From the NCBI GenBank assembly GCA_964591515.1, contig CAZQBW010000001.1, forward strand, positions 36,316 through 100,315: a stretch of 64,000 bases of DNA, given 5' to 3'. Below, in pieces: positions 10,039-51,735 of this stretch (positions within the stretch are counted from its first letter, which is position 1; each line of letters starts with the position of its first letter). The notes under the pieces were generated by a model. That model was not told the origin of the DNA. It saw only the letters and a list, made by a program, of their open reading frames with translations, and did no database searches. The DNA comes from an uncultured Clostridia bacterium (lineage in GTDB: Bacteria; Acidobacteriota; Blastocatellia; UBA7656; JADIYM01). Both the position numbers and the translations under genes were made by a program.

Positions 10039-11577
10039 CTACCGCTGAAAGAGGAATTCCGGTGACGATGCTCCGTCCGGGTTGAGAACACGGACCGAGA
10101 CCGTCTCACCGGCGGGAATCGCCGTCGCCCAGGCGTTTTTCGACAGAGCCTTGTGGCGTGACTTCACCTTCGTATCGCGAACCAGCTCGCCGTTCACCAT
10201 GATCAGACTGCCGGCGCGGATGTCATCGCCTTCGACGATGAGCTTCGAGCCCTGGACTCGAATACCGGAAACGACCGGCGTCGAAGGTTCGCGGTGCTCG
10301 GCATCGATGGTCAGACCGAGGAAGCCGATGCACATCTCGTCCGTAGTCTTCTCGCCCCACGAGACGTCGACCGGCGGAATCGTCGGCTGATTGTGGTTCA
10401 GCTCAGAATTGTCGTACCGGGCCGTGAGCTCGACCCTCGTCGCACCTGGAATTGCCAGAGGCTGCCGGTATTTGTACGAGCCTTGCCAGTGGAAGTCCCA
10501 GTTGTCGATGAAGATGAGACACTGGCGCTCGCCCGTGACGAGGTTCTGGGCCGTCAGCTGCATCTCGCGTCCGAGCAGGTGCATATGCGGCGAGATGTAC
10601 TCAACCTTGACGTTCACCAAGGGCGGAAACGTGAACGACGCCGTAACCGGATAGTCACGCGCGTTGGCGGGAATCGTGAAGTTCTGATTGATAACCGGAA
10701 GGATGATCACGTCCTGGTATACCGGCGACCTCGCGAACTTGAGCGCGATCGACGTCGTGTCGACCTCATCCTGACCGTTCGGCTTGTAATGCACCTGAGC
10801 GACGATGCGAGCGCCCTTCGGCACGAGATAGCCAGTTCCATCACGGAGCACCTGTGGCGGAGCACCCGGTGCCCATCCGCCAAGCGTTCCTACAGTGGCG
10901 AAGCCCGGACCGCCGAAACTCGTGTAGCCGGGACCCGGATCCTGCTGATCGAGAGTAACGGAGATTCCGGTTGCGTCGATGTAGAGGATGACGTGGTGCA
11001 CGATCTTCCGATTGCTCGGGCTCACCTCGACGGCCGTGATGAATCGGTCCGCATCGAAGTTCGTCGGTATCGTGAAGCAGCGATAGATGTCGGCCGTAGC
11101 CGATGCCGGAACCCGGTAACCGCTCGGGACCGTCTGAAGTTCGATGTCAGGCACGCCGAGTTTCCACCCGTTGTCGAATACGAGCGACTCGGGCAGATCG
11201 ACTGGATTGCCCTCGGGAGCACCAGCATCCGCCCACTCCGCGAGCGTCGCGATTTCTTCATCCGTCAGGCCACGCTTGTTGGCGAAGTCGCCGCATCCGT
11301 CGACCGGCTTCCAGGGCGGCATCGCGCGAGATTGCGTCTCGGTCCGGATCGCTTCGGCCCACGGCGCGGCATCCTCGTACGTCATCAGACTGAAAGGAGC
11401 GATGTCACCCGGGTGGTGGCACGTCTGGCAGTTCTGCTGGAAGATCCGCACGACCTGATTCGAGAACGTTGCCGGCTCTGCAGGTGCTGCAGCCTGCGAA
11501 GTGGAGCGATCGGAAACGGCATACGCGCCCGCGGCGAGCGCCAACGCGAACGTGAGCAGACCGAGCGAACGTTTCAT
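10039..11577 (-). CDS. Secreted cytochrome c (PSCyt-like CQTCHH) fused to a copper type-II monooxygenase-like (PHM/DBH-like) domain
   Basis: Start placed at internal MKRSLGLLTFALALAAGAYA signal peptide. CxxCH plus MPPW motif. Motifs HHVILY and SPHMHLLGREM resemble Cu-monooxygenase His clusters. Confidence 0.6.
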   Translation of the reverse strand: MKRSLGLLTFALALAAGAYAVSDRSTSQAAAPAEPATFSNQVVRIFQQNCQTCHHPGDIAPFSLMTYEDAAPWAEAIRTETQSRAMPPWKPVDGCGDFANKRGLTDEEIATLAEWADAGAPEGNPVDLPESLVFDNGWKLGVPDIELQTVPSGYRVPASATADIYRCFTIPTNFDADRFITAVEVSPSNRKIVHHVILYIDATGISVTLDQQDPGPGYTSFGGPGFATVGTLGGWAPGAPPQVLRDGTGYLVPKGARIVAQVHYKPNGQDEVDTTSIALKFARSPVYQDVIILPVINQNFTIPANARDYPVTASFTFPPLVNVKVEYISPHMHLLGREMQLTAQNLVTGERQCLIFIDNWDFHWQGSYKYRQPLAIPGATRVELTARYDNSELNHNQPTIPPVDVSWGEKTTDEMCIGFLGLTIDAEHREPSTPVVSGIRVQGSKLIVEGDDIRAGSLIMVNGELVRDTKVKSRHKALSKNAWATAIPAGETVSVRVLNPDGASSPEFLFQR

Positions 11578-11817
11578 TACGAAAACCCTGTATCGGCGTG
11601 GGATGAGCGCGCGAACCGCGGCGCCCGAACTATACTCCGGACCCGACTCCTGGCTCAACGCCCGGGCCACCCCAATCCGATTTGTCTGGTGAATGCGTAG
11701 ACGGGTCGTTCAACCGACTGAGAACGACCCTGCAACTTCGGAATCTTCATGAGGAACTCCTGTCGCCGGTCGTGACTCAATCGCGTCCTCACCGCGAATG
11801 GAGGCGTCACGCAGGTC

Positions 11818-13554: not shown

Positions 13555-14361
13555 CTACTTGAAGCCAAGCTTCGTTCGCAGCTTGTCCTTGACGATGACA
13601 CCCTTGGCGAATGCCGCGTCAGCAGTCTCACGCACTCCCACGAGAGTGAACGTATGCCACTTCGCCTTCGCGTCGGCGAGCATCGCCTTGACGGCGGCGA
13701 GCTCTGCTTCTTCCGCAGCCACATTCACCTTTCTTTCCTTCGCGGCGTCCATCAATCCGGTTGCCCAGACAACGATTCCGTTGGCGCGATCGATCGCTTC
13801 CATGGCCGTCAGCGCGGAGGCCTCGATGTCCTTGCGATTCGGCAGGAGGTTCCGTTCGATGCCGTGGCACTGGGCGCACAGATTCGCTGCTTCAGGCGGG
13901 AACGAGGCGACGGTTGACGCCATGTGCTGATGGCACGTCGCGCACGTCGGTCCGAGGCCGGCGGCCTTCAACTTCTGGTAATGCGTGCTGCCGGTGAATG
14001 CCGTCGTAATCGGCTCGTGGCAGGCGCCGCAGGTCTGCGGGAGGTTGAGGGAATTGGTCTTGCTCTGCGCTTCTACTGACTTGAGTACGCCGACGTGGGA
14101 CTTTTCCTTGCGGTCCGTGGTCGGGTCCCCGCCGTGGCATTTGTCGCAACTCACGGCCGTCTGCATGTGCCGCGAGAGGTGCCACTCGAGATAGTGGTTG
14201 GTCATTCCCTCGAACTTGAGGTCTCTGGAATGACACGAAACGCACGAGTTGCCCTTGAAAGCCGCGAGTTCGTCCTGAGGCGAGTCGGTGACAGGTCTCG
14301 CGAACGCGATGACTCCGAGGAACAATGCGGCGAAGGCGACGACGACAAAGGTCTTGAACAT
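13555..14361 (-). CDS. Pentaheme c-type cytochrome (secreted or membrane-anchored)
   Basis: Five CxxCH motifs (CVSCH, CDKCH, CGACH, CATCH, CAQCH). Start placed at MFKTFVVVAFAALFLGVIAFA. Confidence 0.8.
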   Translation of the reverse strand: MFKTFVVVAFAALFLGVIAFARPVTDSPQDELAAFKGNSCVSCHSRDLKFEGMTNHYLEWHLSRHMQTAVSCDKCHGGDPTTDRKEKSHVGVLKSVEAQSKTNSLNLPQTCGACHEPITTAFTGSTHYQKLKAAGLGPTCATCHQHMASTVASFPPEAANLCAQCHGIERNLLPNRKDIEASALTAMEAIDRANGIVVWATGLMDAAKERKVNVAAEEAELAAVKAMLADAKAKWHTFTLVGVRETADAAFAKGVIVKDKLRTKLGFK

Positions 14362-14793
14362 GGCGCTTCTCCCATCGAGCGGCTCGACGCCTGCGCCGTG
14401 GCTACTCAGATGTGGCGCCGATTCCTGCCGAGCCTGCGCGATGGAAGGTGCAACCTGCGTGCCAAGTTGACGATTTGAACGCCCCAGACTGGGGCAGCCC
14501 GAAATCGCCGCGTTCCCCCGCATCCCGCCGTCCTTCAGGTATTTCGCTCTGATCGAATCTGCGCCATATGACGAGCCCACGTGCGGAAATGCACCCGGCT
14601 CGACGCTTCATTTCTGAAGGCGTCCGGTGCCTGGCATCCGGCCACCGCGGGCGGACGGCGCCGGCGACCCGACTTCCACCATCTTGAAAGGATCTCAGTG
14701 GAGAATGCGAACGATCCGCTAGTCCATGGCGCAGAGATCCCCCGGGCCGTCAGAGTTTCCGCGATGTCGATCGTTAGTTCCCTCTGACTGAGA

Positions 14794-17064
14794 TCACGGA
14801 ATCGTCGCCACGACGGCTGCCGAGTATGCGGGACCGGGATTGGCGATCCGCACTTCCACTTGTGTTCCTGCCGGCACTGCCGCCCGTTCGATTCGTACGC
14901 GGAAGCTCTTCTTGCTCGTCCGCTCAACCGACATCAATGGAACGGCAGTGCCCGAGCCGTCCGCGAGCCTCACATCGACCGTCGCGTCGTCGAGTACGTA
15001 CTTTCCGCGCACTGTCAGCGTGATGTTCGATCCGTCAGCCACGGTTACTTTCTTGACGAGCGGTCCGATCAGCAGCAGCGGAACGACCGCAACGGATGGA
15101 TCCGTCCCCGGATTCCGGACCTGTACAACCACGCTGCCAGGCGTGTTGCGAACCTCCGGAATGTCATCGAGCGCAACTCTCAGCGTCCGCATGTCGACGA
15201 ACTCAGTCGGCGCGTCGATCCCGTTCAGGACCGCTACTGACCCCGCGACGAACAGCCGCGATGCGTCCGTCGATGCGTTGTTCAGAGTCAGGACGATACC
15301 GGGCTCGCCAGCGTAGATCTTCTTCCTGTCGGGAGCGACAGTCACCGACGTAAGGAGCGGTGAGCTCTGAGCTCCGCGACCGGCGCGCTGGCTGAACCAC
15401 TTTCCAGAGATGATGTACGACTCGCCAGCCGCGTCCAGTCTGTTCCCGGCGCCATCGCCGCCCATTGCATTCGGAACCAGGTCGATGAATCCGTCTCCGT
15501 CGACGTCACCGGTCGCGAGTGAGTACGTGAACATGTCGCCCGCATCAGGCGCCACGATCTGGAAGATCGGCACCGACGGCGGATTGTTCGCCGTGTCGAC
15601 GATCGCCGGAAATGGCTGCTCCGAGCCGAAGATGACTTTCAGGTCGCCGGCGGATTCGCGTCCTGCGCCAGCGTTGATCGGACTTCCGAAGAGAATGTCG
15701 TCGAGACCGTCGTCGTCGATGTCGGCGATACGTAGCGAATCCGCGCCAATGTCGCCGGCGTTCTCACCGTAAATTGTCAGCGCCTTCGCGTTTGCCGCGT
15801 TCCTGAGATCGATCCGGTCTCCGCGTCCGAAACGGCTCCCCCAGACGATGTAGCCGATACCCGCTGCATTCCTGCCCGGCGCATCCGCAACGAGGGCGCC
15901 GATCGCCAGTTCATCGCGCCCGTCGCCGTCGATGTCGCCGGCATCGACGTCTTCCCCAAAGTACCCGTTCGCCTGATCGCCATACACGATGGTGGTGTCG
16001 TTCGGCGGATTCGAAAGCTGAATGGCGGATGGCCACGCCGCGCGACCGTAGAGCACAGTCACCTCGCCAGCGTTCTGCCGGTCGTTGTTCGGGCCGTCGC
16101 CGCCGCCCTGGCCGATGCCGTTGTTCACCTGGCCGTAGCCGGTATACGCAGCCCCCGCGCGCGAGACTCCGGCCGAGCAGGCGATGTCTCCGAAACCGTC
16201 GCCATCGAAATCGCCGGTGGAGATGCACGAGCCGAAGTGATCCTGGTCATCGAGTCCATAGACTGCGGTCACGTCGAGACTGCTCAGATCGGAACCTCGG
16301 GAAAGGTCTATCCGGGCCGGAAAATCCTGACCGCCTGGAATCATGTAAAGGATGCCCCGGGCGGCGCCGGCCCCGCTGCTGCTCTTCGCAAGGTCCGCCG
16401 AGACGAGAATATCGGCGATATCGTCACCGGTGACGTCGCCGGCGTGAACCCAGAATCCCAGCCGGTCGCCCGGGTTCGCTCCGAGAATCTGAATGACGGA
16501 GGGTCCCGGATTGACGAGGTCGATCGTTGGAGGAAACTCGGGCCGGCCGATCACGACATATGCCACGCCTGCCTGCGACCGATTCGAGTCGTTGTCGAAT
16601 CCGTCTCCGTTCTGCGCACCAGTCAGGATATCGGCGATCCCGTCACCGGTGACGTCGCCGAGCGAGATCTCGGTTCCGAGAAAGTCGTCCGGGCGAGCGC
16701 CGAAGATCGAGCACGTGCCCGCAGGAGCCTGGGCCATGTCCACAACCGACCCGGTCAGCGCATCCGCGGATCCGAAGGCCACGTTGATCTGACCGGCAGC
16801 ACGGCGCCCGCCGGACGGTCCCGACGGTCCGTAGAACGCGGCAAGCGCAACGTCATCGAAACCGTCGCCGTTGACATCGCCAGAGCCGACCGGCATTCCG
16901 AGGAGCGATCCTTCGGAGTAGCCGTTGTAGACCGTCATCTGTCCCATCTGGCTGGTGTCACGAGTGTCCCAGATCCGAGTGTAGATGGCGGATGCCGGAA
17001 TTGCCGGAATGGACCAGAGAACGATGGCGGGCAGGACGAGGCTTGCAATGTAGCGTCGGTTCAC
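14794..17064 (-). CDS. Secreted FG-GAP (integrin-alpha-like) beta-propeller protein with C-terminal Ig-like (IPT/TIG-like) domains
   Basis: Signal peptide. Repeated GDVNGDGFDDV, GDVTGDGIADIL, GDFDGDGFGDI, GDIDGDGRDEL, GDVDGDGFIDLV motifs. Confidence 0.8.
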   Translation of the reverse strand: MNRRYIASLVLPAIVLWSIPAIPASAIYTRIWDTRDTSQMGQMTVYNGYSEGSLLGMPVGSGDVNGDGFDDVALAAFYGPSGPSGGRRAAGQINVAFGSADALTGSVVDMAQAPAGTCSIFGARPDDFLGTEISLGDVTGDGIADILTGAQNGDGFDNDSNRSQAGVAYVVIGRPEFPPTIDLVNPGPSVIQILGANPGDRLGFWVHAGDVTGDDIADILVSADLAKSSSGAGAARGILYMIPGGQDFPARIDLSRGSDLSSLDVTAVYGLDDQDHFGSCISTGDFDGDGFGDIACSAGVSRAGAAYTGYGQVNNGIGQGGGDGPNNDRQNAGEVTVLYGRAAWPSAIQLSNPPNDTTIVYGDQANGYFGEDVDAGDIDGDGRDELAIGALVADAPGRNAAGIGYIVWGSRFGRGDRIDLRNAANAKALTIYGENAGDIGADSLRIADIDDDGLDDILFGSPINAGAGRESAGDLKVIFGSEQPFPAIVDTANNPPSVPIFQIVAPDAGDMFTYSLATGDVDGDGFIDLVPNAMGGDGAGNRLDAAGESYIISGKWFSQRAGRGAQSSPLLTSVTVAPDRKKIYAGEPGIVLTLNNASTDASRLFVAGSVAVLNGIDAPTEFVDMRTLRVALDDIPEVRNTPGSVVVQVRNPGTDPSVAVVPLLLIGPLVKKVTVADGSNITLTVRGKYVLDDATVDVRLADGSGTAVPLMSVERTSKKSFRVRIERAAVPAGTQVEVRIANPGPAYSAAVVATIP

Positions 17065-42395: not shown

Positions 42396-44873
42396 CTACT
42401 GCAATACGACCGGTGCGGTGAAGATGCCAGAGATGAAGACTCGAACAGCAACCGGCTTTGCTTGAAGGAGTTGCGGTAGTCGCGAGTCTTTGCCGACCAG
42501 TCGGCTGCTCGTTCCGTCCGTCCCGACAAAACGCGGCGGAGCTTTCACTGATCCGAGGGCAGTCTCGCCAACGAAGATCTCCCCACCCGTAGCCGGCAAG
42601 CGCAGTCCGTCGACCGTCAGCTTCTTGCCGCTCGTGGCGAACCTGGCGGATCCAAGAACTGGAGCAAACGGATCCAGCGCGTCCACGGCGGCTGACGATG
42701 CTGTCGCCATCGATTCGATTCCCTCTCCATCAACGAAATCGACCCGCACAGTAGCCGATGCGAGCATCAGGCCATTCACGATTGCTGGCGCGGCCGACTG
42801 ACCGAGCACGAAAGCTGACTTGGATCCCGTGGCCCAGTCGCCGTCCCCGTCAAGATCCACTCGGAGCACGGCGCCGATCGCATCGCGATCCGGCTGAGCA
42901 TCTGCCGCGTGTGCGTCTGCGTCGGAATCCGTTCGAGCTCGCAGACGAAGCGTCCCCGTTCCGGAGCGCGGATTCTGCATGATTCCGATCTCGCCAGACG
43001 ACGTCACGCCAAGATCAACGGTGCCGGAACCATCCCGATCCACCCATACCGCCGACGTCAGGTCCGCAGGCAGAGAGAAGCGCGCCGTCGCGTCGTCGAA
43101 TCCGTTCGCACCGCGATTGCGAAGCACGTGGATGCCGTCCTGCCCACCCTCGACGAGCAGGTCCGTATCGCCGTCGGCATCGTAATCCGCCGGCAATACT
43201 CGAGTTCCCCCCGCAAGCCCCCCGATCGCAAGCTCCGACGTAACGTCGAGAAAACGAAGTTCGCCTCCAACACCGGCGAGCACCAGATTCCCTGCCAGAC
43301 GCGTCGCAACGACGTCGAGCCATCCGTCTCCGGTCACGTCCGCCCACGCAACGGCCGACGCGGGAAAGCTCACGGCAGATCCGAACGCCGTCGACTCGTC
43401 AACCATTCTTCCTTCGGTGTAGCTATAGACTCGAAGTCCGGCTCCGGTCGCGACCAGCAGCCGCGGTCCCCCGGCAAGCCCCGTTACCGGCCCCGTTGGC
43501 GCGCTCCACGTCGACGAAGCATCGACGAAGCCGTCCGCCGTGTTCTTCAGTGCGAGCAGTCCCGTCGACCCGCCAGCCACGACATCGAGACGACCGTCCC
43601 GGTCGACGTCCATCCAGACGACCGCGCGCGGGTCCGCGAATCGGGGAAGAGATGTCGGCGCGCCGACACTGGTGAACGAACCGAGCCCATCGTTACGCCA
43701 GATGCTCGTCGCATTGACAGCGAGCACCGCGAGATCCGGAGTCCCGTCGCCATCGGCGTCGCCCCAGGCGAGCGCGCGAACATCGCCGGGAAGCGTCAAT
43801 CCAGAGGCCTCGGTCGATTCGGTGAACGTCCCGTCGGCCTCCTGCAGGTAGAGGAGGACGCCTCCTGCGCTGCGGCCAACCACGACGTCCTGACGGCCGT
43901 CGCCGTCGACATCGGCCCAGGCCTGTCGCTGAAAGTCGCCGCCGAGAGGCGCCTCCGCGATTGGCACCGCCGTGGACAGCCCAAGCGGCGCGATCGTGAG
44001 GTTAGACCGCGACTGATCGGTTCGCTCGGTACCACCAGTGTCCACTACAACGACCCGGATCCGGGCATCGGTCGTGGCGAGGGCCTCGGGAATGGTCCAC
44101 ACGAATGACCGTGCGGTCGCCGGCAGATTGTCTGCCAGGACGGACGGGTAATTCTCGCCGCCGTCCGTCGAGAGCAGAACACGGAAATAGGATGGCGTGG
44201 CAGAGTCGCCATCGGTTGCGCTCCAGCGAATGACTACGCGCTCACCCGATCCGAGCGGACTGCCAGTCGTCGGCGATTCGAGTCGGACGCGAACAAAGCG
44301 TGTTAATCCATCGATAGTTACGCTCGTTGTGTAAATGTAATCGTAGAAGTCCGTGTGGTCACCGTTGGCCGCATTTCCAGCTGCGTAGAACGTCACGGGT
44401 CCGAGGTCGGTCGATGGCGCTTTCCAGACCATTGACCAGGATACTTCTCCGCGTGATCCGTCATAGGTCCCAGTCAAGGTGTGCTGTGCGTAATACCGGC
44501 CAAGACGCTGCGAAGGCCCGAGTGCCGAGACCGAGAGCGTGCTCGACTGGAAGAAGCCCGCGGCGTGACCGAGTTCGTCGATGGCCGTGATCTGGAATCC
44601 CCACTTCTTGGCCAGCGGATCCGAGACCCTAACGGTCACTGGGTACGTCTGGCCGGGTGTGTACTGTGTCGGAAGTCCCTCGATCGCCACACGGCCGGGG
44701 CCGGAATCGAGTGGATAGGTCCGGTGGCACGTATTGCACGCCACCTCGCTGGGCGCACCGGTCCGCTCGAGAAAGGGTCCGGTCGACAGCGCTTCCACCG
44801 ACTCGGACGACGACATCAGTACGACCGCGGCTACCGCAAAGACGAGAAGGGCGAGTGACTTCAGTAGTTTCAT
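42396..44873 (-). CDS. Secreted FG-GAP/VCBS-repeat protein with N-terminal CxxCH motif (CNTCH)
   Basis: Signal peptide MKLLKSLALLVFAVAAVVL. Repeated D.DGDG..D motifs (DVDGDGRQDVVVG, GDADGDGTPDL, DVDRDGRLDVV, DVTGDGWLDVV, DYDADGDTDLL). Confidence 0.75.
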   Translation of the reverse strand: MKLLKSLALLVFAVAAVVLMSSSESVEALSTGPFLERTGAPSEVACNTCHRTYPLDSGPGRVAIEGLPTQYTPGQTYPVTVRVSDPLAKKWGFQITAIDELGHAAGFFQSSTLSVSALGPSQRLGRYYAQHTLTGTYDGSRGEVSWSMVWKAPSTDLGPVTFYAAGNAANGDHTDFYDYIYTTSVTIDGLTRFVRVRLESPTTGSPLGSGERVVIRWSATDGDSATPSYFRVLLSTDGGENYPSVLADNLPATARSFVWTIPEALATTDARIRVVVVDTGGTERTDQSRSNLTIAPLGLSTAVPIAEAPLGGDFQRQAWADVDGDGRQDVVVGRSAGGVLLYLQEADGTFTESTEASGLTLPGDVRALAWGDADGDGTPDLAVLAVNATSIWRNDGLGSFTSVGAPTSLPRFADPRAVVWMDVDRDGRLDVVAGGSTGLLALKNTADGFVDASSTWSAPTGPVTGLAGGPRLLVATGAGLRVYSYTEGRMVDESTAFGSAVSFPASAVAWADVTGDGWLDVVATRLAGNLVLAGVGGELRFLDVTSELAIGGLAGGTRVLPADYDADGDTDLLVEGGQDGIHVLRNRGANGFDDATARFSLPADLTSAVWVDRDGSGTVDLGVTSSGEIGIMQNPRSGTGTLRLRARTDSDADAHAADAQPDRDAIGAVLRVDLDGDGDWATGSKSAFVLGQSAAPAIVNGLMLASATVRVDFVDGEGIESMATASSAAVDALDPFAPVLGSARFATSGKKLTVDGLRLPATGGEIFVGETALGSVKAPPRFVGTDGTSSRLVGKDSRLPQLLQAKPVAVRVFISGIFTAPVVLQ

Positions 44874-44925
44874 GATCGCCGGGAATGGTACCACGACGCG
44901 TCGCGAACGAACCTCGGTGCTCAAG

Positions 44926-44995
44926 GGGACTCTGAGCTCTCTGTATGCCGACGGTAACTCCAGTGGGGTACTTAGAGCACCGAGACCCTGAGTCC
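44926..44995. repeat. Degenerate CACAGAG/CTCTGTA-type inverted repeat upstream of the 42396..44873 gene
   Basis: ggactctgagctctctgta ... tagagcaccgagaccctgagtcc. Confidence 0.35.
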
Positions 44996-45048
44996 GCAGG
45001 GCGCGAATTTGACGGCCTCCGCTGCATACCTGTACCCTTCGCCACCTT

Positions 45049-45597
45049 ATGGCGATAAAGGTTGAACATCAGTCCTCCATCGAAGTGAAAGATCTGGACT
45101 CTCAGGTGCAGGCGGCCATCGAGTGTCTGCCGATCGAGCACCTACGCGGATTCAGTCGTATCCGGTTCGTCGACCGTATCGAGGATTCCCGACTTCCGCA
45201 GGACCTTCTCAAGGGTCTTCCGGCGCTCTACCGTCCAAAGCAGCCAGGGCACGCGTCCGCTTTTGGCGACGTTGCTCTGATGGTGCTCCAGCCGCAGGAC
45301 CTGAACTGGTTCAAGCGGCTGGCGGCGAAGGCACAGTTGAAGGCGCTGATCGCGCAATCGGTGATGTCGCTCGTGGCTCAACATTACCTGGTCACTGTTT
45401 CGAGCAAGAAGAAGAAGGGTCCGGAGATCGAGCGGGCCGTTCGCGAGTACGTCGAGCGATACTTCAAGGTGTGGCGGGGTCGTCAGTCCGGCTGGCGGGC
45501 CCGTCTTTTCCGTCCGCTCGTGCCCTACCTCGAGAAGTGGCAGAAGTCCGCTCGCAAATACCAGCTCGAGCAGGCGCGCAAGAAAGCCGGGAAATAG
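45049..45597 (+). CDS. Hypothetical basic protein (182 aa)
   Basis: ORF only. K/R-rich C-terminus. Confidence 0.4.
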   Translation: MAIKVEHQSSIEVKDLDSQVQAAIECLPIEHLRGFSRIRFVDRIEDSRLPQDLLKGLPALYRPKQPGHASAFGDVALMVLQPQDLNWFKRLAAKAQLKALIAQSVMSLVAQHYLVTVSSKKKKGPEIERAVREYVERYFKVWRGRQSGWRARLFRPLVPYLEKWQKSARKYQLEQARKKAGK

Positions 45598-45742
45598 CAG
45601 AATTGGCAGAGTGAATGGACAGGATTGCAGGTATTTCCGGGGATTAGCAGGATCTGTCTTGGTCCTTTGAACTCACCGCGAAGAACCTAAGGCAGATCCT
45701 GACAAGCCTCGGAAAATCCTGAAATCCTGTCCACTCACTCAC

Positions 45743-47716
45743 TCACACGGCGACGTACTTTGACCCGGCGCGCTGCAGGCGCAGAACCGTGGCGGATCCG
45801 TCCGGATTCGTGACCTGAAGGAACCTCACAGCACCGGAAGGCCAGAATTGGCTGAGCTTTAGCCCTCCAATCTTTCCTTTCTGCGTGAGCTTCATGCCAG
45901 AACCGGCGACCTTCGCCGGCGAGTCGAAAGAGACCCAGGCGCCAGTCGGATCCGTAGCCGAGACCGTGGAGCCCTGCGCAAAGAGCCGGGTTGCCCCAGT
46001 GATGACCCGAAGTCGAAGGCCCTCATTGTTCACGACCTTGTCGCGATTGATCTCCGCGCCGGGAGCCATCACGTCTCGAGCATCGGACGCCATCACCACT
46101 CCGAATGCCGGTCCAATCAGATCGGGATTTGGCCGCCCGTGCCCGGTTGTGATCCATCCCTTCAGGTCGACGAGCTCACGCGGCGCGCGACGGTAGACAA
46201 GCTGCGCAGATATCGATACCGGATCAAAGCCGTCAGGGAGCGCGAAAGCATATTCGCTCCAATCCGTGGCACCTGCGGGAATTCGATTGTCCGAGACGAT
46301 TCGTGTGGCTTCCGTGAAGAAGACTCCTGATTCGTTCTCGTTGCCGAAGATCTTTGCGAACGCCTTGCCGGGCTGCCCTGCATAGTAGCCCTGTGCAGGA
46401 TCTCCAACGCCACCTATCGAAGGAACCGTCTCGGATCCTTCTGCAACGAATTCGAGTCCAGAGCCGAAGGCGTCCGATGCTCTGACGAGCAATATGGCGT
46501 GCCGGATCGCCTGTCCCCCCGGAAGGTCGTGCCCCGTACGGTCGTTCGTCACCGCAATCGAGACGCGAAGTGTTGATCCATCACGTCGTCCAATCGCACG
46601 TAAGGTCGCGGCATTCTGGACAAATTCGACTGTAGTACCCTCGAAATCGTGCGAGTAGACCTGCGACGGATCTCGAGTGACTGGCTGGTACTGCTCGCAC
46701 ATTGCACGATCGCCCTTCGGCGCCATGTGGCAATCCATGCACGTCTTCATCCCGGCTCCCGGGACCGCGTACGGGCTCGCAAGCCACTCGGACCAGGTCT
46801 CTTCGCTGACCACACTGCCTTCATCGAGGTAGTCGAGGTCGAAATCGTGGTCGTTGTTGTCTTCGTGGCACGCAGCACACAGTAGTCCGGTAGTGTGAAT
46901 CTTGCTGTAGGAGGCCCGCATCACGCCCGGGAAGTTCGGCGCTGAATCCGGCAGCGGGCCGAAAATCGTCTCGCGCGACGAGCGAGCCATCATCATTCCC
47001 TGCACGCCCGGCAGCTTGACGTTCGAGATGTCGTAGGTCTTGTGACAGACGTCGCAGGACACGCCGAATTCTCGGGCAAATGGAGTGATCTCGGAGAAGT
47101 CGGTGTTGTCTCCAGGATTCTTCGCGGAGTCCATCGGCGCGTGGCACTCAGCACAGTCTCCCTTGAACCCGGGGTGGACGTCCTTGTAGACGAACCCATT
47201 CCCTCCGGTTCCGGGTGTGCCTTGTCCGTCGTACATGTCGCGAACCCAGGTGTTCTTCGCGGCATTCCTGTGCGCCGAGTCCTGCCAGTACTCGAACAGC
47301 GTACCGTGGCAGAGGCGACAGTCCTGCGGGCTCGTGAACTCGTAAGTCGGGTCGTCGGCAAGCACCGCCGGAGCGAGCGCCAGCTCGAGGCCAGAATCGC
47401 CAACGAGAACCGACAGTTTCGCGTTGTAGTAGCTCGCGTGGGTCGCCTCGCCATTCAGCGCTCCGGCCGCGATCGTGACTGCGGCGCCGGCTTCTCGCGT
47501 GGTACGTAACGTGAACGTGCCATCGGCGCCCGACGTCGTCTGCTCGGTAAGGCTCGCCTGAATGCGGACGTCGGCGTTCGGAATCGGCGTGCGAGTTGCC
47601 GAGTCGATCACCTTCCCGGTGATGGTCTGCTGCGGCGCCGCGAACTCGACGGCCCAAGGCCCGAACATCAGTCCGAGCCAGAGAATGGCGAAGGCAAAGA
47701 ACGAGACTCTCTTCAT
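45743..47716 (-). CDS. Secreted multiheme cytochrome c (five CxxCH) with N-terminal carboxypeptidase-regulatory-like domain
   Basis: Signal peptide. ITGKVIDSATRTPIPNADVRI. Heme motifs CRLCH, CAECH, CDVCH, CAACH, CMDCH. Confidence 0.8.
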   Translation of the reverse strand: MKRVSFFAFAILWLGLMFGPWAVEFAAPQQTITGKVIDSATRTPIPNADVRIQASLTEQTTSGADGTFTLRTTREAGAAVTIAAGALNGEATHASYYNAKLSVLVGDSGLELALAPAVLADDPTYEFTSPQDCRLCHGTLFEYWQDSAHRNAAKNTWVRDMYDGQGTPGTGGNGFVYKDVHPGFKGDCAECHAPMDSAKNPGDNTDFSEITPFAREFGVSCDVCHKTYDISNVKLPGVQGMMMARSSRETIFGPLPDSAPNFPGVMRASYSKIHTTGLLCAACHEDNNDHDFDLDYLDEGSVVSEETWSEWLASPYAVPGAGMKTCMDCHMAPKGDRAMCEQYQPVTRDPSQVYSHDFEGTTVEFVQNAATLRAIGRRDGSTLRVSIAVTNDRTGHDLPGGQAIRHAILLVRASDAFGSGLEFVAEGSETVPSIGGVGDPAQGYYAGQPGKAFAKIFGNENESGVFFTEATRIVSDNRIPAGATDWSEYAFALPDGFDPVSISAQLVYRRAPRELVDLKGWITTGHGRPNPDLIGPAFGVVMASDARDVMAPGAEINRDKVVNNEGLRLRVITGATRLFAQGSTVSATDPTGAWVSFDSPAKVAGSGMKLTQKGKIGGLKLSQFWPSGAVRFLQVTNPDGSATVLRLQRAGSKYVAV

Positions 47717-47725
47717 TGATTGAGG

Positions 47726-50038
47726 CTAGGGAGCGACGGCCATCGCAGGGCTAGAATAGGCCGGACCTGGATTGACGGCCCTGACGGTGAGAACGGCACC
47801 TGACGGTTGACCTGGAATCGTCGCCCGAAGCTTCGTCCCGCTCTTTCGAACGACCGAGATCGTCGGGATTTCCACACCGCTCGCGTTGGCTACCGTGACA
47901 GTGGATCCTGCGAGGAAGTCAGCTCCCTTCACTGTCAGCCTCAGGTTTGCTCCCTTCTTCTGCAGCTTGATGAACGTTATCGACGGACCCCTGAGCGTTA
48001 TCGCCGAAACGCCGATCGACGCATCGGATCCGGGGTTCTTGACCCGAGCCGTCACGAGTCCAGGCGTATTGCGCACCTCGGGTGCGTCATCGAGGCTGAC
48101 ACGCAGTTCCTTGTTGTTGATGAAGGTCGTCTGTACCTCCACGCCGTTCAGTATCGCCTTCGCTCCGGCCACGTACAGACCGTCCGACTGATCGGTTTCG
48201 CAGAGCAGCGTCAACTGAATTCCAGTCTGTCCCGCGTAGTACACCGTCGACGCCGGTGACACCGTCACCCTCGTCAGGCAGGGAGTGCCGGCGGGCCCGC
48301 GACCGGCGCGCAAACTGAATTCCTTTCCCGACAGGATGTACAGCTCGCCCGCATCGCGGCAGCAGTTGCCGAGTCCGTCACCGCCCATTCCATTTGGCAT
48401 GAGATCGGTGAAGCCGTCGCCGTCAAAGTCGCCGACAGTAAATGAGTAGGCGAACATGTCGCCCGGATCCGCGGCGATCACCTGATATACAGACACGGAG
48501 GCCGGCGGATTCGCCAGGTCGACGACCGTCGGCAGCCGGTCAGCATCGCCGAAGATCACCTTGATGTCGCCGGCTTCGGGGCGAGATGCCGGATCGTAGG
48601 TCGGACTCGCGAAGATCATCTCGTCGAGTCCGTCGGCATTGACGTCTGCGAGCGCGATCGTGTCTGACCCGATGTCACCTGCGGCCTCGCCATAGATGCG
48701 CGTCATTCGCGGTTCGGTCGTTCCGAGAGCGCGAGTGTCGACCCGCTCGCCCCGAGATATGAACGTACCCCAGAAGATGTAGCCTACGCCGCTGTCGTTT
48801 CGCGGCGGAACGCCCGGAGTTCCGGACGGCGCGCTTGCCGTGAGTGCTCCGACCGCAAGTTCGATCTGGCCGTCGCCGTCGAAGTCGCCGACGCGCACAT
48901 CCTCGCCGAAGTGATCACCGCCGTTCTGCCCGTAATAGATCGCCACGTCGGCTGTCGGGTTCGACAACTCCATGGTCGCCGGCCAGTTCGTCCGCCCGTA
49001 GATGATGTAGACCTCGCCAGCCTCGGTCCGGTCGTTGCTGGGTCCGCCGCCGCCGCCAAGTCCGTTGGAGCAGAATGCGCCAGCAGGCTCTTCTACCTTT
49101 GCCGTCGGAAACGCGCCGGAGCGGGCCAGGCCGGCGGAACAGACGATGTCGTCGATTCCGTCCCTGTCAAAGTCACCTGAAGTGATACATGAGCCGAAGT
49201 GGTCACAATCATCGACACCATAGATGATCGAAATGTCCAGACTTGCGAGTTGACTTGAGCTTCCGAGGTCGATCTGAGCCGGTAGAGTCGGCCCGCCGGG
49301 AATGATGTAGAGCTTTCCACGTGCTGATCCGATTCCAGCTGAGCTCTTCGCAAGGTCGGCTGAAACGAGGATGTCGTTCGTCCCGTCGCCGTTCACGTCG
49401 CCGTACGACGGCCAGAATCCGCAGCGTTCGCCCGCAACTGCGCCAATGATCTCGGTCACACCCGTCATCGGAGTGCCCGCAAGGTCAATCGTCTCGGGCC
49501 AGGTCGTTCTGCCGTTGATGACGTAGAGCTTGCCGGCCAGCGGACGGCTCGAATCGGTGCCTAGGCCATCGGCGTTCTGCGCCCCGACGAGAATGTCCTC
49601 CAGTCCGTCGCCGGTCACGTCGCCGGTCTCCACCTCGTTTCCAAGAAAATCGCCCGCTCGTGCGCCAAAAATCGTCGTGTGAGTACCGGGGGCCGCCGTC
49701 AAATCGGTCACGGTGCCGGAGATGGAATCCGGGGCGCCGAAATGGACCTGTAGCTCGCCTGCACGCGGTCGCACGTTGCCCGGTCCCGAGGGAGCGAGAA
49801 ATGGAGCGAGGATGGCATCGTCATCGCCGTCGCCGTCGAGATCGCCGGAAGCGCACGGCATCCCGAGGGTCGTGCCGTCCGGGTCGGAGTTGTAGATCGA
49901 CCTCTGACCGGTTTGCGCGGTGGTCTTGATGTCCCAGATCATCGTCGTCGCGCGCTCATCGGCTCGAGCCTGTCGCGCTGGTGCAATGACAGCAAACGCG
50001 AGGCACATCGCAACCGCAATTCCCGCAAGTCTTTTCAT
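47726..50038 (-). CDS. Secreted FG-GAP beta-propeller plus IPT-like protein, paralog of 14794..17064
   Basis: Start at MKRLAGIAVAMCLAFAVIAPA. Co-linear similarity to the 14794..17064 product (IWDIKTTAQTGQRSIYN..GDLDGDGDDDAILA vs IWDTRDTSQMGQMTVYN..GDVNGDGFDDVALA). Confidence 0.8.
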   Translation of the reverse strand: MKRLAGIAVAMCLAFAVIAPARQARADERATTMIWDIKTTAQTGQRSIYNSDPDGTTLGMPCASGDLDGDGDDDAILAPFLAPSGPGNVRPRAGELQVHFGAPDSISGTVTDLTAAPGTHTTIFGARAGDFLGNEVETGDVTGDGLEDILVGAQNADGLGTDSSRPLAGKLYVINGRTTWPETIDLAGTPMTGVTEIIGAVAGERCGFWPSYGDVNGDGTNDILVSADLAKSSAGIGSARGKLYIIPGGPTLPAQIDLGSSSQLASLDISIIYGVDDCDHFGSCITSGDFDRDGIDDIVCSAGLARSGAFPTAKVEEPAGAFCSNGLGGGGGPSNDRTEAGEVYIIYGRTNWPATMELSNPTADVAIYYGQNGGDHFGEDVRVGDFDGDGQIELAVGALTASAPSGTPGVPPRNDSGVGYIFWGTFISRGERVDTRALGTTEPRMTRIYGEAAGDIGSDTIALADVNADGLDEMIFASPTYDPASRPEAGDIKVIFGDADRLPTVVDLANPPASVSVYQVIAADPGDMFAYSFTVGDFDGDGFTDLMPNGMGGDGLGNCCRDAGELYILSGKEFSLRAGRGPAGTPCLTRVTVSPASTVYYAGQTGIQLTLLCETDQSDGLYVAGAKAILNGVEVQTTFINNKELRVSLDDAPEVRNTPGLVTARVKNPGSDASIGVSAITLRGPSITFIKLQKKGANLRLTVKGADFLAGSTVTVANASGVEIPTISVVRKSGTKLRATIPGQPSGAVLTVRAVNPGPAYSSPAMAVAP

Positions 50039-50339
50039 TTGATTCGCATCCCCAGTTGTTTGACCGGCCGAATTGTACCAGTCGGATTCAAGAGGCGGCC
50101 AAGAATGAAAGAGATACGCGGCCCTGTGCCTTCGCGGATGACCTGACACCTGGCGACGGCGAGGGGCGGCACACGCAATTGCGCACGTTGCTTTGCGAAC
50201 TGCGTTCGTCCACAGAGGCACCGCGGGACCGAGAAAGGTATTCTCTGTCGTCGTGCCGCTGCTGCCGCGCGGACTCTGACCAGGGATAGTGTTCGGGAAT
50301 CCCGGTATCCGCCGATAGACGCGGCTGATGCCAACGATT

Positions 50340-51557
50340 CTAGATCTTCGGGCCGACGCCGCTCAGGTTTCCCCGCTTGCTCCAGGGACCGGTCAGACTT
50401 TTTGCAGCCCACACGGCGCCGACTCCGTCGAGGACGAGAACTTCCCCCGGATTAGTCCACACTGGCCTCGAAAGCGGAGCGGGCGCCTGCAGTGCAATCT
50501 TCCAATCAGGTCGACCGGACTGGTTGACCGAAAGGTTTCCCCGGGCGCCCGCGTGTCCGACAACCCACGTGAGTCCACCGTCCGCCGGGCCGATTGCGTC
50601 AAGATCCTGTCCAGCCAGGACCGGGCGTGGCAGCCAAGTCTGTCCACCGTCACGCGATTCGATGACAAGTCCGCCATCCGCGGCTATCCACGCTTGCGTT
50701 GCCGATGCAAAGGCAATGTCATTTAGACTTGCGCCCGAGAGCGTTGCTCCACGCGCGTGGTCCTCACCATTTGCCCCGCCGAGAATCACGGTCGAGCCGA
50801 CGATTGCGGCAAAAATCCGATCCGAGCGCCAAGCCGCGATTGCGGCACCGGCTATCCGAGTGCCAAGTTTCCAACCGGTAGAGTCGCCCACGAGAAGCGC
50901 CGATGACGGCAGCGGCTCGTTCCATCCCCGAATCACCGCCCACGCCCCGGCTGCGCTCACGCCTGCGACTTCCACCGCGCGCGGACCCGAGATGTCGGAC
51001 ATCGGCGCGAGGTCCGCCGTCGTTGTCCAGGTCCGTGCGGAATCCCGTGACTCGGCCACGATCCCGGACCGCAACACGCAGGTCCACGTACCGCCCGGTC
51101 CTACTCCGACTGCTACTGCCTCGTCTCCGTTACTCCCTACCGGGCCCTGCTGAAGCCAGGTGGCTCCACCGTCCCCGCTCGTCATAGCGCGCCCACGAAC
51201 GACCGCCACCAGGAGCTGGCCCGATACGCCGACGATCGGACGCGGTGCCCAGGCCCGCCGGCGGGCTGGCCCACTCTGAGCGACGATATCCGCATACGAC
51301 CGTCCCGTGACCGGAGCGACTCGCGGCGCGTCGGGAGCCTTCGGTCCTCCTTGCTTCTGGCCTCCCTTGTTGTTGGCCTTTTTGGCCTTCGGCTTCTGCA
51401 CGGTCTCGGGACCTTCGGCCCCGGCTGGAGCCGCGAACAGAACGGCCAGCGCCGCGACCATGAACAAGCTCAACGCGAGGTGGAAGGGACGATTTCTCCG
51501 AGAGCAGTTCTGCCGATGCTCGCGGGTTGCCACTTGACTGGATTCCAGGGGTTTCAT
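50340..51557 (-). CDS. BNR/Asp-box repeat beta-propeller protein (Ycf48-like), membrane-anchored
   Basis: Asp-box motifs SGDGGATW, SRDSARTW, SRDGGQTW. N-terminal TM segment. Confidence 0.6.
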   Translation of the reverse strand: MKPLESSQVATREHRQNCSRRNRPFHLALSLFMVAALAVLFAAPAGAEGPETVQKPKAKKANNKGGQKQGGPKAPDAPRVAPVTGRSYADIVAQSGPARRRAWAPRPIVGVSGQLLVAVVRGRAMTSGDGGATWLQQGPVGSNGDEAVAVGVGPGGTWTCVLRSGIVAESRDSARTWTTTADLAPMSDISGPRAVEVAGVSAAGAWAVIRGWNEPLPSSALLVGDSTGWKLGTRIAGAAIAAWRSDRIFAAIVGSTVILGGANGEDHARGATLSGASLNDIAFASATQAWIAADGGLVIESRDGGQTWLPRPVLAGQDLDAIGPADGGLTWVVGHAGARGNLSVNQSGRPDWKIALQAPAPLSRPVWTNPGEVLVLDGVGAVWAAKSLTGPWSKRGNLSGVGPKI

Positions 51558-51735
51558 GGTGTTCGGACTACGCCGGCGGACCTCGCATTGGCCAACTGTG
51601 GCCGCAGCTGAATATCGGCAAAGCTGAGGCTCGACTTCAGCAGGCAGCCGAAAAGCTCTGGAATGACCATCTTCCGGTGATTAGTCAATGCTGCGTCGGA
51701 GGCAACGATAGTAAAACCACTGTGGCGATTGGCAT

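What the first reader, a model, noticed from the sequence alone, without database searches (positions are those of the whole stretch)
45743..50038. Paralogous cassette 2: FG-GAP/IPT propeller plus pentaheme cytochrome c with carboxypeptidase-regulatory-like N-domain
This is the second copy of the architecture described for 13555..17064. The cytochrome here is larger (657 aa, five CxxCH) and begins with a CarbopepD_reg-like beta-sandwich. The cassette lies in the same strand block as a BNR beta-propeller, parAB and other housekeeping genes, which suggests it is core rather than a mobile acquisition.
Basis: inference. Interest (0 to 1): 0.6.

Follow-up and report, generated by a model that had tools for sequence, protein, structure and literature searches.

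The report
Integrin-like propeller plus pentaheme cytochrome operon
A soil or wastewater acidobacterium carries a tightly linked, conserved gene pair for a secreted integrin-like calcium-binding propeller and a five-heme electron-transfer protein; the pairing is undescribed, but both parts belong to known families and the function is inferred only.

Summary
At 47726..50038(-) there is a 770-aa secreted seven-bladed FG-GAP propeller with two C-terminal Ig/IPT-like domains. Nine nt downstream, at 45743..47716(-), lies a 657-aa secreted cytochrome with five conserved CxxCH motifs and an N-terminal CarboxypepD_reg/transthyretin-like domain.

The 'paralogous cassette' reading is only partly right. 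The two propellers are true paralogs (50% identity over 745 aa). The two cytochromes are unrelated beyond their heme motifs. Cassette 1 has a 432-nt gap, and its cytochrome is missing in one positional ortholog. So the propeller gene was duplicated, not the pair.

Cassette 2 is core chromosome. The block ParA-ParB-BNR-propeller-cytochrome keeps a 9-10 nt junction in Blastocatellia relatives down to 46%/57% identity.

The pairing is lineage-restricted: 0 of about 70 cytochrome loci in other phyla have it. It recurs once in a distant lineage, with a 4-nt overlap. Four of the 120 listed propeller-family homologs (two lineages) are fused to monoheme cytochrome c domains.

Most likely this is an extracytoplasmic electron-transfer module with a non-catalytic docking propeller. 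Interest is moderate.

The parts
47726..50038 (-). Propeller gene (770 aa plus stop): a secreted integrin-alpha-like FG-GAP protein
   Evidence: Pfam FG-GAP 94.9 bits. AF2 pLDDT 89.6. All top 50 Foldseek PDB hits are integrin alpha chains, E about 1e-21. A 100%-identical 770-aa protein exists, P0121.
49958..50038 (-). Sec-type signal peptide of the propeller (residues 1-27, MKRLAGIAVAMCLAFAVIAPARQARA|D)
   Evidence: Read from the sequence. The model shows an N-terminal helix followed by a low-confidence linker. The cleavage site is inferred.
48299..49951 (-). Seven-bladed FG-GAP beta-propeller (about residues 30-580), with seven DxDxDG Ca2+-type loops at residues 66, 140, 214, 289, 385, 465 and 537
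   Evidence: One search finds six of the loops by pattern; the D140 loop ('DVTGDG') is read from the translation. Searches give the fold. The D/G columns are invariant in 22 homologs.
47729..48286 (-). Two C-terminal Ig/IPT-like beta-sandwich domains (residues 585-770)
   Evidence: AF2 strands, pLDDT above 90. NCBIfam CoaZ_rpt_PGGG E 4.8e-10. The last domain is weakly related to the C-terminus of ORF 10039..11670 (E 2.5e-5).
47717..47725 (-). 9-nt intergenic spacer (CCTCAATCA) between the propeller stop TAG and the cytochrome ATG
   Evidence: A spacer of the same size (9-10 nt) is found in L001-L006 and L009 and in the P0156 contig.
45743..47716 (-). Pentaheme c-type cytochrome gene (657 aa plus stop), PHC/c552-like family
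47639..47716 (-). Sec-type signal peptide of the cytochrome (residues 1-26). It has no lipobox cysteine.
   Evidence: Sequence and the N-terminal helix in the model.
47375..47629 (-). CarboxypepD_reg / transthyretin-like beta-sandwich (residues 30-114)
46637..47344 (-). Five-heme domain (residues 125-360). CxxCH motifs lie at 47306-47320, 47141-47155, 47042-47056, 46865-46879 and 46727-46741.
   Evidence: verifies the coordinates. All ten Cys and five His are invariant in 25 homologs. The region aligns to 5ze8 and MccA.
46067..46609 (-). Ig-like beta-sandwich of the PHC fold (residues 370-550). It carries the invariant NDRTGH396xxPxG loop.
45746..46054 (-). Lineage-specific C-terminal beta-domain (residues 555-657). 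In other phyla this position holds MYXO-CTERM, T9SS and other C-terminal modules.
   Evidence: Alignment A1, columns 600-766. Source names of homologs. No detectable homology to other window proteins.
50340..51557 (-). Conserved upstream neighbour: a BNR/Ycf48-like propeller protein with an N-terminal hydrophobic segment (context; possibly the same transcription unit)
   Evidence: Weak Pfam PSII_BNR. It always sits between ParB and the propeller in relatives.
14794..17064 (-). Paralogous propeller of 'cassette 1' (756 aa)
   Evidence: 50% identity over 745 aa. It falls in a separate clade in the NJ tree.

Best explanation
This is a conserved two-gene operon on the core chromosome of a Blastocatellia (Acidobacteriota) bacterium. 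Gene 1 encodes a Sec-exported protein built like an integrin alpha ectodomain: a seven-bladed FG-GAP propeller with seven Ca2+-type loops, followed by two Ig/IPT-like 'leg' domains. Gene 2 starts 9 nt later and encodes a Sec-exported pentaheme c-type cytochrome. Its core (heme domain plus Ig-like domain) has the fold of T. tepidum cytochrome c552, the PHC family that also holds ExtKL/MccSep and Gsu2801. That core is flanked by a transthyretin-like N-domain and a lineage-specific C-terminal beta-domain. Proposed mechanism (inferred): the two proteins work together outside the cytoplasmic membrane. The five-heme chain acts as an electron wire. The non-catalytic propeller docks, anchors or positions the cytochrome on an envelope component, a surface or a partner. 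Shown: sequences, folds, heme motifs, paralogy, synteny and spacing. Inferred: co-translation, physical association, cellular location, and direction and partner of electron flow.
Against: The pairing is not general. None of about 70 cytochrome-family loci from Planctomycetota, Myxococcota, Gemmatimonadota and other phyla has this propeller within 10 kb. There the recurrent neighbours are NapH/CcoG-like polyferredoxins (13 loci) and NarGH-like molybdoenzymes (9 loci). A 52%-identical cytochrome paralog in a related MAG stands alone (L008). Propeller relatives P0160, P0165, P0145 and P0148/P0150 have no cytochrome neighbour. Of 52 distant propeller loci only L084 has one. Within Blastocatellia the whole neighbourhood is syntenic, so conserved adjacency alone is weak evidence there. 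No promoter, terminator or RNA element was found to delimit the operon. No complex prediction could be run.
Confidence: 0.5

Rival explanations
1. The adjacency is inherited synteny without functional coupling. The cytochrome is a stand-alone periplasmic electron carrier, and the propeller is an unrelated adhesin or envelope protein.
For: The pairing is absent in about 70 loci of the cytochrome family outside this clade. The cytochrome paralog stands alone in L008. Propeller paralogs and relatives lack cytochromes. The whole 20-kb block is syntenic anyway.
Against: The 9-10 nt junction is kept while the proteins diverge to 46% (propeller) and 57% (cytochrome) identity. The order propeller-then-PHC recurs independently with a 4-nt overlap in L084. 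The propeller is fused to cytochrome c domains in two other lineages.
Confidence: 0.25
2. The propeller is the catalytic or substrate-oxidising subunit, and the pentaheme cytochrome is its electron acceptor. This would parallel propeller-plus-cytochrome-c enzymes such as PQQ quinohemoprotein dehydrogenases or cd1 nitrite reductase.
For: C-terminal monoheme cytochrome c fusions of the propeller family (P0159/P0163, P0188/P0190) resemble quinohemoprotein architecture. Two relatives are fused to a GSDH (PF07995) domain (P0161, P0170). Non-Ca residues are invariant in the family (R90, R205, W209, E379, Y531, N549).
Against: There is no PQQ or other cofactor-family hit. Structural neighbours are exclusively integrin alpha chains. 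All seven blades carry Ca-type loops, typical of binding propellers. I know of no redox-active FG-GAP propeller (own knowledge).
Confidence: 0.12
3. The cytochrome is itself an enzyme, for example a polysulfide/selenite reductase like MccSep (ExtKL) or a sulfite reductase like MccA, and the propeller is accessory.
For: The best NCBIfam hit is ExtKL (E 1.2e-13), and ExtKL was shown to be the pentaheme polysulfide reductase MccSep (bioRxiv 10.1101/2025.11.18.688581). The profile also hits MccA. There is a semi-conserved Cys at residue 340 (21 of 25 sequences).
Against: The score is 50.5 bits against a family cut-off of 250. MccSep requires a strictly conserved distal Cys on heme 2 and a Sec/Cys. 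Here no non-CxxCH Cys is invariant, C340 is lost in 3 of the 8 aligned Blastocatellia-type sequences (the window protein keeps it), and there is no in-frame TGA. The invariant residues H356, H396, H526, M266, M331 and M542 could supply six-coordinate ligation for all hemes (inference).
Confidence: 0.1

Closest known systems
Thermochromatium tepidum pentaheme cytochrome c552 (PDB 5ZE8) and the 'PHC' family (ExtKL/MccSep, Gsu2801, cable-bacteria sPHC/lPHC)
   Different: Only 17-19% identity. The window protein adds an N-terminal transthyretin-like domain and a C-terminal beta-domain. It is encoded behind an FG-GAP propeller. c552 itself has no established function.
MccSep (ExtKL, GSU2937-2936), the periplasmic pentaheme selenoprotein polysulfide reductase of Geobacter sulfurreducens
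   Same: Homologous pentaheme core with a C-terminal Ig-like domain (NCBIfam E 1.2e-13).
   Different: No Sec, no invariant catalytic Cys pair, far below the family cut-off, and no extHIJ-type porin or rhodanese neighbours.
Integrin alpha-chain ectodomain (for example alphaV, alpha5, alphaIIb)
   Same: A seven-bladed FG-GAP propeller with Ca2+-type hairpin loops, followed by Ig-like domains (Foldseek E about 1e-21).
   Different: 12-14% identity. Bacterial, with no transmembrane tail and no beta-subunit gene. All seven blades carry DxDxDG loops (my recollection, not checked here, is that integrins have three or four).
Porin-cytochrome outer-membrane conduits (MtrCAB, Geobacter Ext/Omb clusters)
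   Same: Exported multiheme cytochrome with weak Pfam matches to MtrC/MtrF domains II/IV. Orthologs in other phyla carry surface-sorting tags.
   Different: No beta-barrel porin gene, no lipoprotein cytochrome and no deca- or higher-heme partner in the block.
HZS-homolog gene clusters that contain a CRTAC1-type FG-GAP gene (PMC12758564)
   Same: A precedent for an FG-GAP repeat protein gene embedded among heme-protein genes. The window also has an FG-GAP_3 protein with one CxxCH motif 0.8 kb downstream.
   Different: Different FG-GAP subfamily and unrelated heme proteins. No HZS homologs here.

Membership tests
PHC / c552-like pentaheme cytochromes | Five CxxCH heme-binding motifs in conserved order | tested here: met
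   Residues 133, 188, 221, 280 and 326. All are invariant in 25 homologs.
PHC / c552-like pentaheme cytochromes | Heme domain plus C-terminal Ig-like domain with the fold of PDB 5ZE8 | tested here: met
PHC / c552-like pentaheme cytochromes | Covalent binding of five hemes; redox properties | not testable with these tools
   Needs heme staining, mass spectrometry and potentiometry.
MccSep / ExtKL (NCBIfam NF040886) | Score above the curated equivalog cut-off | tested here: not met
   50.5 bits against 250.
MccSep / ExtKL (NCBIfam NF040886) | Strictly conserved distal Cys ligand of heme 2 and a catalytic Sec/Cys from the Ig-like domain | tested here: not met
   There is no invariant Cys outside the CxxCH motifs. 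The only candidate, C340, is absent in 4 of 25 sequences. There is no in-frame TGA. A direct alignment to the MccSep sequence was not possible.
FG-GAP / integrin-alpha-like propellers | FG-GAP repeats above the Pfam gathering score | tested here: met
   PF01839: 94.9 bits against 22.1, five stretches.
FG-GAP / integrin-alpha-like propellers | Seven-bladed propeller with Ca2+-type loops, followed by Ig-like domains | tested here: met
   AF2 pLDDT 89.6. Seven loops (six by pattern, the D140 loop from the translation). Integrin alpha chains are the top hits. Actual Ca2+ binding was not tested.
Porin-cytochrome extracellular electron conduit | Adjacent outer-membrane beta-barrel gene and a lipoprotein surface cytochrome | tested here: not met
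   The neighbours are ParB, BNR, a 182-aa protein with no family, FG-GAP_3 and LpxD. The cytochrome signal peptide has no lipobox Cys.
Quinohemoprotein-type propeller dehydrogenase plus cytochrome c | PQQ-type propeller or other cofactor-binding signature | tested here: not met
   No PQQ or GSDH Pfam/NCBIfam hit in the window propeller. The fold neighbours are integrins only.
   The propellers are paralogous (50% identity). The cytochromes are not (different families). Cassette 1's adjacency is not conserved in L140.

The most novel reading that the evidence does not exclude
The integrin-like propeller and the PHC pentaheme cytochrome form a previously unrecognised two-component surface module. 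The propeller binds a solid or polymeric substrate (mineral, humic matter, another cell or matrix) and holds the heme wire against it. If so, Blastocatellia from activated sludge, which have no described extracellular electron-transfer system, would have a porin-independent form of contact-dependent extracellular electron exchange. The clade-specific His-for-Met swap at residue 149 would tune this module to a lower potential.
Probability: 0.15. Interest if true: 0.65.

Novelty: new variant of a known kind. Interest (0 to 1): 0.35.

Why it matters
Blastocatellia are abundant in soils and activated sludge. Their multiheme cytochromes have no assigned substrates (PMC8100337). A conserved, translationally tight pairing of a PHC-family cytochrome with an integrin-like binding propeller gives a concrete, testable hypothesis for how one of these cytochromes is positioned or targeted. 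The hypothesis is backed by independent gene-order and gene-fusion evidence in other phyla.

The work also defines a family of CarboxypepD_reg-PHC cytochromes with no specific name in the source annotations. It has about 1,300 representatives at 50% clustering. Its interchangeable C-terminal sorting domains point to an extracytoplasmic or surface location.

Both parts are nonetheless members of known families, and no experiment yet links them, so the finding is a useful lead rather than a surprise.

Tried and rejected
- Promoter and terminator scan of 44800-51700: no promoter-like sites, and terminator-like sites below the shuffle expectation.
- Rfam on 42-52 kb: nothing.
- HMM of the cytochrome's C-terminal domain against all window ORFs: no significant relative, so a shared-anchor-domain idea is not supported. 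Only the propeller's last domain weakly matches ORF 10039..11670.
- Direct sequence search of the PDB: only 5ze8, at E 0.005. The MccSep structure is not in the PDB copy, so the catalytic residues could not be aligned directly.
- FG-GAP_3/ASPIC-type neighbours of the cytochrome family in other phyla (4 of about 70 loci, two of them adjacent: L023, L049). I judged this to be near the rate expected by chance, because I recall such genes being numerous in Planctomycetota and Myxococcota genomes. That background rate is my own rough estimate, not a tool result.
- P0339, a fusion of an L084-type cytochrome with FG-GAP_3 repeats. The repeats are only generically similar to the window propeller, and they are one of many variable C-terminal modules, so this is weak evidence.
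- Metagenome scan with the propeller profile: mostly very distant FG-GAP proteins (24-35% identity) with no cytochrome neighbours.
Full report
**1. Observation**

The region holds two same-strand ORFs.

- The upstream ORF runs 47726..50221(-). The ATG at 50038 gives 770 aa, the length of a 100%-identical database protein (P0121) and of its orthologs.
- The downstream ORF, 45743..47716(-), is 657 aa. It has CxxCH at residues 133, 188, 221, 280 and 326.
- The two genes are separated by 9 nt, TAG-CCTCAATCA-ATG.
- Pfam finds FG-GAP (94.9 bits) in the first protein. In the second it finds CarboxypepD_reg (residues 31-84) plus weak Cytochrome_C7/C554/MtrC-II-IV matches.

**2. The cytochrome**

*Fold and family*
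- NCBIfam's best hit is the ExtKL model: E 1.2e-13, residues 131-416, 50.5 bits against a cut-off of 250.
- A direct PDB sequence search finds only T. tepidum pentaheme c552, 5ZE8.
- A profile of 25 homologs also reaches MccA. It aligns the invariant NDRTGHxxPxG loop to 'PHAMPTG' of c552.
- The AF2 model has mean pLDDT 79. The heme core is low, as expected without hemes; the beta domains are above 90.

*Domain order*
- Signal peptide, residues 1-26.
- Transthyretin-like domain, 30-114.
- Five-heme domain, 125-360.
- Ig-like domain, 370-550.
- Extra beta-domain, 555-657.

*Literature*
- c552, ExtKL, Gsu2801 and cable-bacteria cytochromes are grouped in a 'PHC' family, which has been suggested to be related to archaeal cytochrome nanowires (PMC11976967).
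- ExtKL was recently shown to be MccSep, a periplasmic polysulfide reductase. It uses a strictly conserved heme-ligating Cys and a Sec/Cys (bioRxiv 10.1101/2025.11.18.688581).
- In the window family no Cys outside the CxxCH motifs is invariant. C340 is present in 21 of 25 sequences.
- So this protein is not an MccSep-type enzyme. An electron-carrier role is more likely.

*Family size and C-termini*
- The family has 1,320 representatives at 50% clustering with E <= 1e-3, and 157 with E <= 1e-30.
- It occurs in Planctomycetota, Myxococcota, Gemmatimonadota, Eisenbacteria and other phyla.
- The first roughly 545 residues are shared. The C-terminus varies: MYXO-CTERM, T9SS sorting domains and others. 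This argues for an extracytoplasmic or surface location.
- Blastocatellia-type members have their own C-terminal beta-domain. It has no detectable relative in the window.

**3. The propeller**

- The AF2 model (pLDDT 89.6) shows a seven-bladed propeller plus two beta-sandwich domains.
- All top PDB matches are integrin alpha chains, E about 1e-21.
- Seven DxDxDG-type loops occur about every 75 residues. One search finds six by pattern; the D140 loop is read from the translation.
- No cofactor family is detected.
- The structural picture is that of a Ca2+-dependent binding scaffold, not an enzyme.

**4. Paralogy and the 'cassette' idea**

*What is paralogous*
- Propeller 2 and propeller 1 (14794..17064) are 50% identical over 745 aa.
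- In a neighbour-joining tree they fall in two separate multi-member clades, so the duplication is old within the lineage. This is an NJ tree only and was not bootstrapped.
- The two cytochromes are not homologous beyond their heme motifs. Cytochrome 1 is a 268-aa NrfB/DmsE/NapC-like pentaheme.

*How cassette 1 behaves*
- Its likely start (M74, position 14361) leaves a 432-nt gap after propeller 1.
- The positional ortholog L140 shares the YceD-L32-PlsX-FabD flank but has no cytochrome.
- L141 has the cytochrome 1.1 kb away, with an opposite-strand gene call between.
- Three members of the propeller-1 clade in GCA_902826415.1 have no cytochrome neighbour.

So the propeller gene was duplicated, not a two-gene unit.

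**5. Is the adjacency in cassette 2 meaningful?**

*For*
- The block SSB-SMC-MiaB-BFN-ParA-ParB-BNR-propeller-cytochrome-(182 aa, opposite strand)-FG-GAP_3-LpxD-XerC is conserved in MAGs whose cytochromes are 81% and 69% identical.
- The core MiaB-BFN-ParA-ParB-BNR-propeller-cytochrome-(178 aa, opposite strand) is still present on the 10.9-kb P0156 contig. There the propeller is 46% identical and the cytochrome is probably P0020, 57% identical (the identification rests on matching contig length). The gap is 10 nt.
- The junction is 9-10 nt in every locus with DNA.
- Locus L084 comes from a distant, unnamed lineage. It has two tandem propellers (38% identity) followed by a pentaheme protein so diverged that phmmer misses it. 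hhalign against the A1 profile still gives 98.6% probability, E 9e-16, including the NHTGHKLPTG loop. Its GTG start overlaps the propeller stop by 4 nt.
- Four of the 120 listed propeller-family proteins carry C-terminal monoheme cytochrome c domains of two different families. These are Binatia P0159/P0163 (PSCyt1) and Phototrophicaceae P0188/P0190 (class I), plus metagenome loci L091/L092.

*Against*
- None of about 70 cytochrome-family loci from other phyla has this propeller within 10 kb. There the recurrent neighbours are a NapH/CcoG-like membrane polyferredoxin (13 loci) and a NarGH-like molybdoenzyme set (9 loci).
- A 52%-identical paralog of the cytochrome in MAG DTUACD2 stands alone among glycosyltransferase and methyltransferase genes.
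- Most propeller relatives have no cytochrome neighbour.

The coupling is therefore real but facultative and lineage-specific. This is what one expects of an accessory docking partner rather than an obligatory subunit.

**6. Core or mobile**

- GC is flat at 0.60-0.64 across the window.
- The flanks are chromosome-partition and housekeeping genes.
- The synteny is deep.

**7. Mechanism and rivals**

- Best reading (confidence 0.5): a co-translated extracytoplasmic pair. The PHC five-heme chain conducts electrons, and the integrin-like propeller docks or positions it.
- Rival, inherited adjacency without coupling (0.25).
- Rival, a catalytic propeller feeding the cytochrome, as in quinohemoproteins (0.12). 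The fusions favour it; the integrin-only fold matches and the lack of a cofactor signature argue against it.
- Rival, an enzymatic cytochrome of MccSep or MccA type (0.10). The missing catalytic residues argue against it.

**8. Novelty and score**

- Both proteins belong to known families.
- The CarboxypepD_reg-PHC subfamily has no specific name in the source annotations.
- A full-text search for 'FG-GAP' together with 'multiheme cytochrome' found one paper. It concerns CRTAC1-type genes in hydrazine-synthase-homolog clusters.
- I rate this a new variant of a known kind, with interest 0.35.

Noticed in passing
window 47270-47272 (cytochrome residue 149); alignment A1: Residue 149 is His in all 8 Blastocatellia-type sequences and Met in all 17 sequences from other phyla. 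Further clade-specific His/Met columns are 181 and 241 (Blastocatellia only) and 217, 432 and 540 (others only). This looks like a swap of axial heme ligands that would shift redox potential.
   Followed up: partly
window 42396..44924 (-): An 842-aa secreted protein, always found downstream in the syntenic block. It has an NCBIfam 'choice-of-anchor V' N-domain that carries a single CNTCH motif, followed by an FG-GAP_3 (VCBS/ASPIC-like) propeller. The CxxCH motif is kept in all Blastocatellia orthologs. It may be a monoheme protein belonging to the same surface gene neighbourhood.
   Followed up: partly
window 45049..45597 (+): A 182-aa ORF with no Pfam or NCBIfam family and no signal peptide. 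It converges on the cytochrome gene. It is conserved at this position in all relatives, including the most distant one (178 aa).
   Followed up: no
window 10039..11670 (-): A 543-aa secreted protein with a cytochrome c (CBB3-type) domain and a weak Cu2_monooxygen (PHM/DBH-like) match. Its C-terminal domain is related to the last Ig-like domain of the propellers.
   Followed up: no
L084 7176-14217 (JGI Ga0187892_10003124): Two tandem propellers followed by a 700-aa pentaheme protein (P0241). That protein belongs to a very large, highly conserved family: 5,876 hits, 55-63% identity across Myxococcota, Planctomycetota, Armatimonadota and Verrucomicrobia. The family has variable C-terminal modules (MYXO-CTERM, Dicty repeats, fn3, Calx-beta), and one member has FG-GAP_3 repeats (P0339).
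   Followed up: partly
L012-L082 (cytochrome-family loci of other phyla): Outside Blastocatellia the CarboxypepD_reg-PHC cytochrome is often next to a NapH/CcoG-like membrane polyferredoxin with a TPR tail (13 loci). In 9 loci it is next to a TAT-type NarG/NarH-like molybdoenzyme cluster. These are candidate electron donors or partners for the family.
   Followed up: partly
L008 9884-11860 (MAG DTUACD2, contig 29): A second cytochrome of the same architecture, 52% identical, in a related MAG. It has no propeller and sits among polysaccharide-biosynthesis genes. So the cytochrome, too, has paralogs in this lineage.
   Followed up: partly
window 50340..51557 (-): A BNR/Ycf48-like propeller protein with a Lys/Gly-rich low-complexity linker after its N-terminal hydrophobic segment. 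It lies between ParB and the FG-GAP propeller in every relative examined and may belong to the same unit.
   Followed up: no
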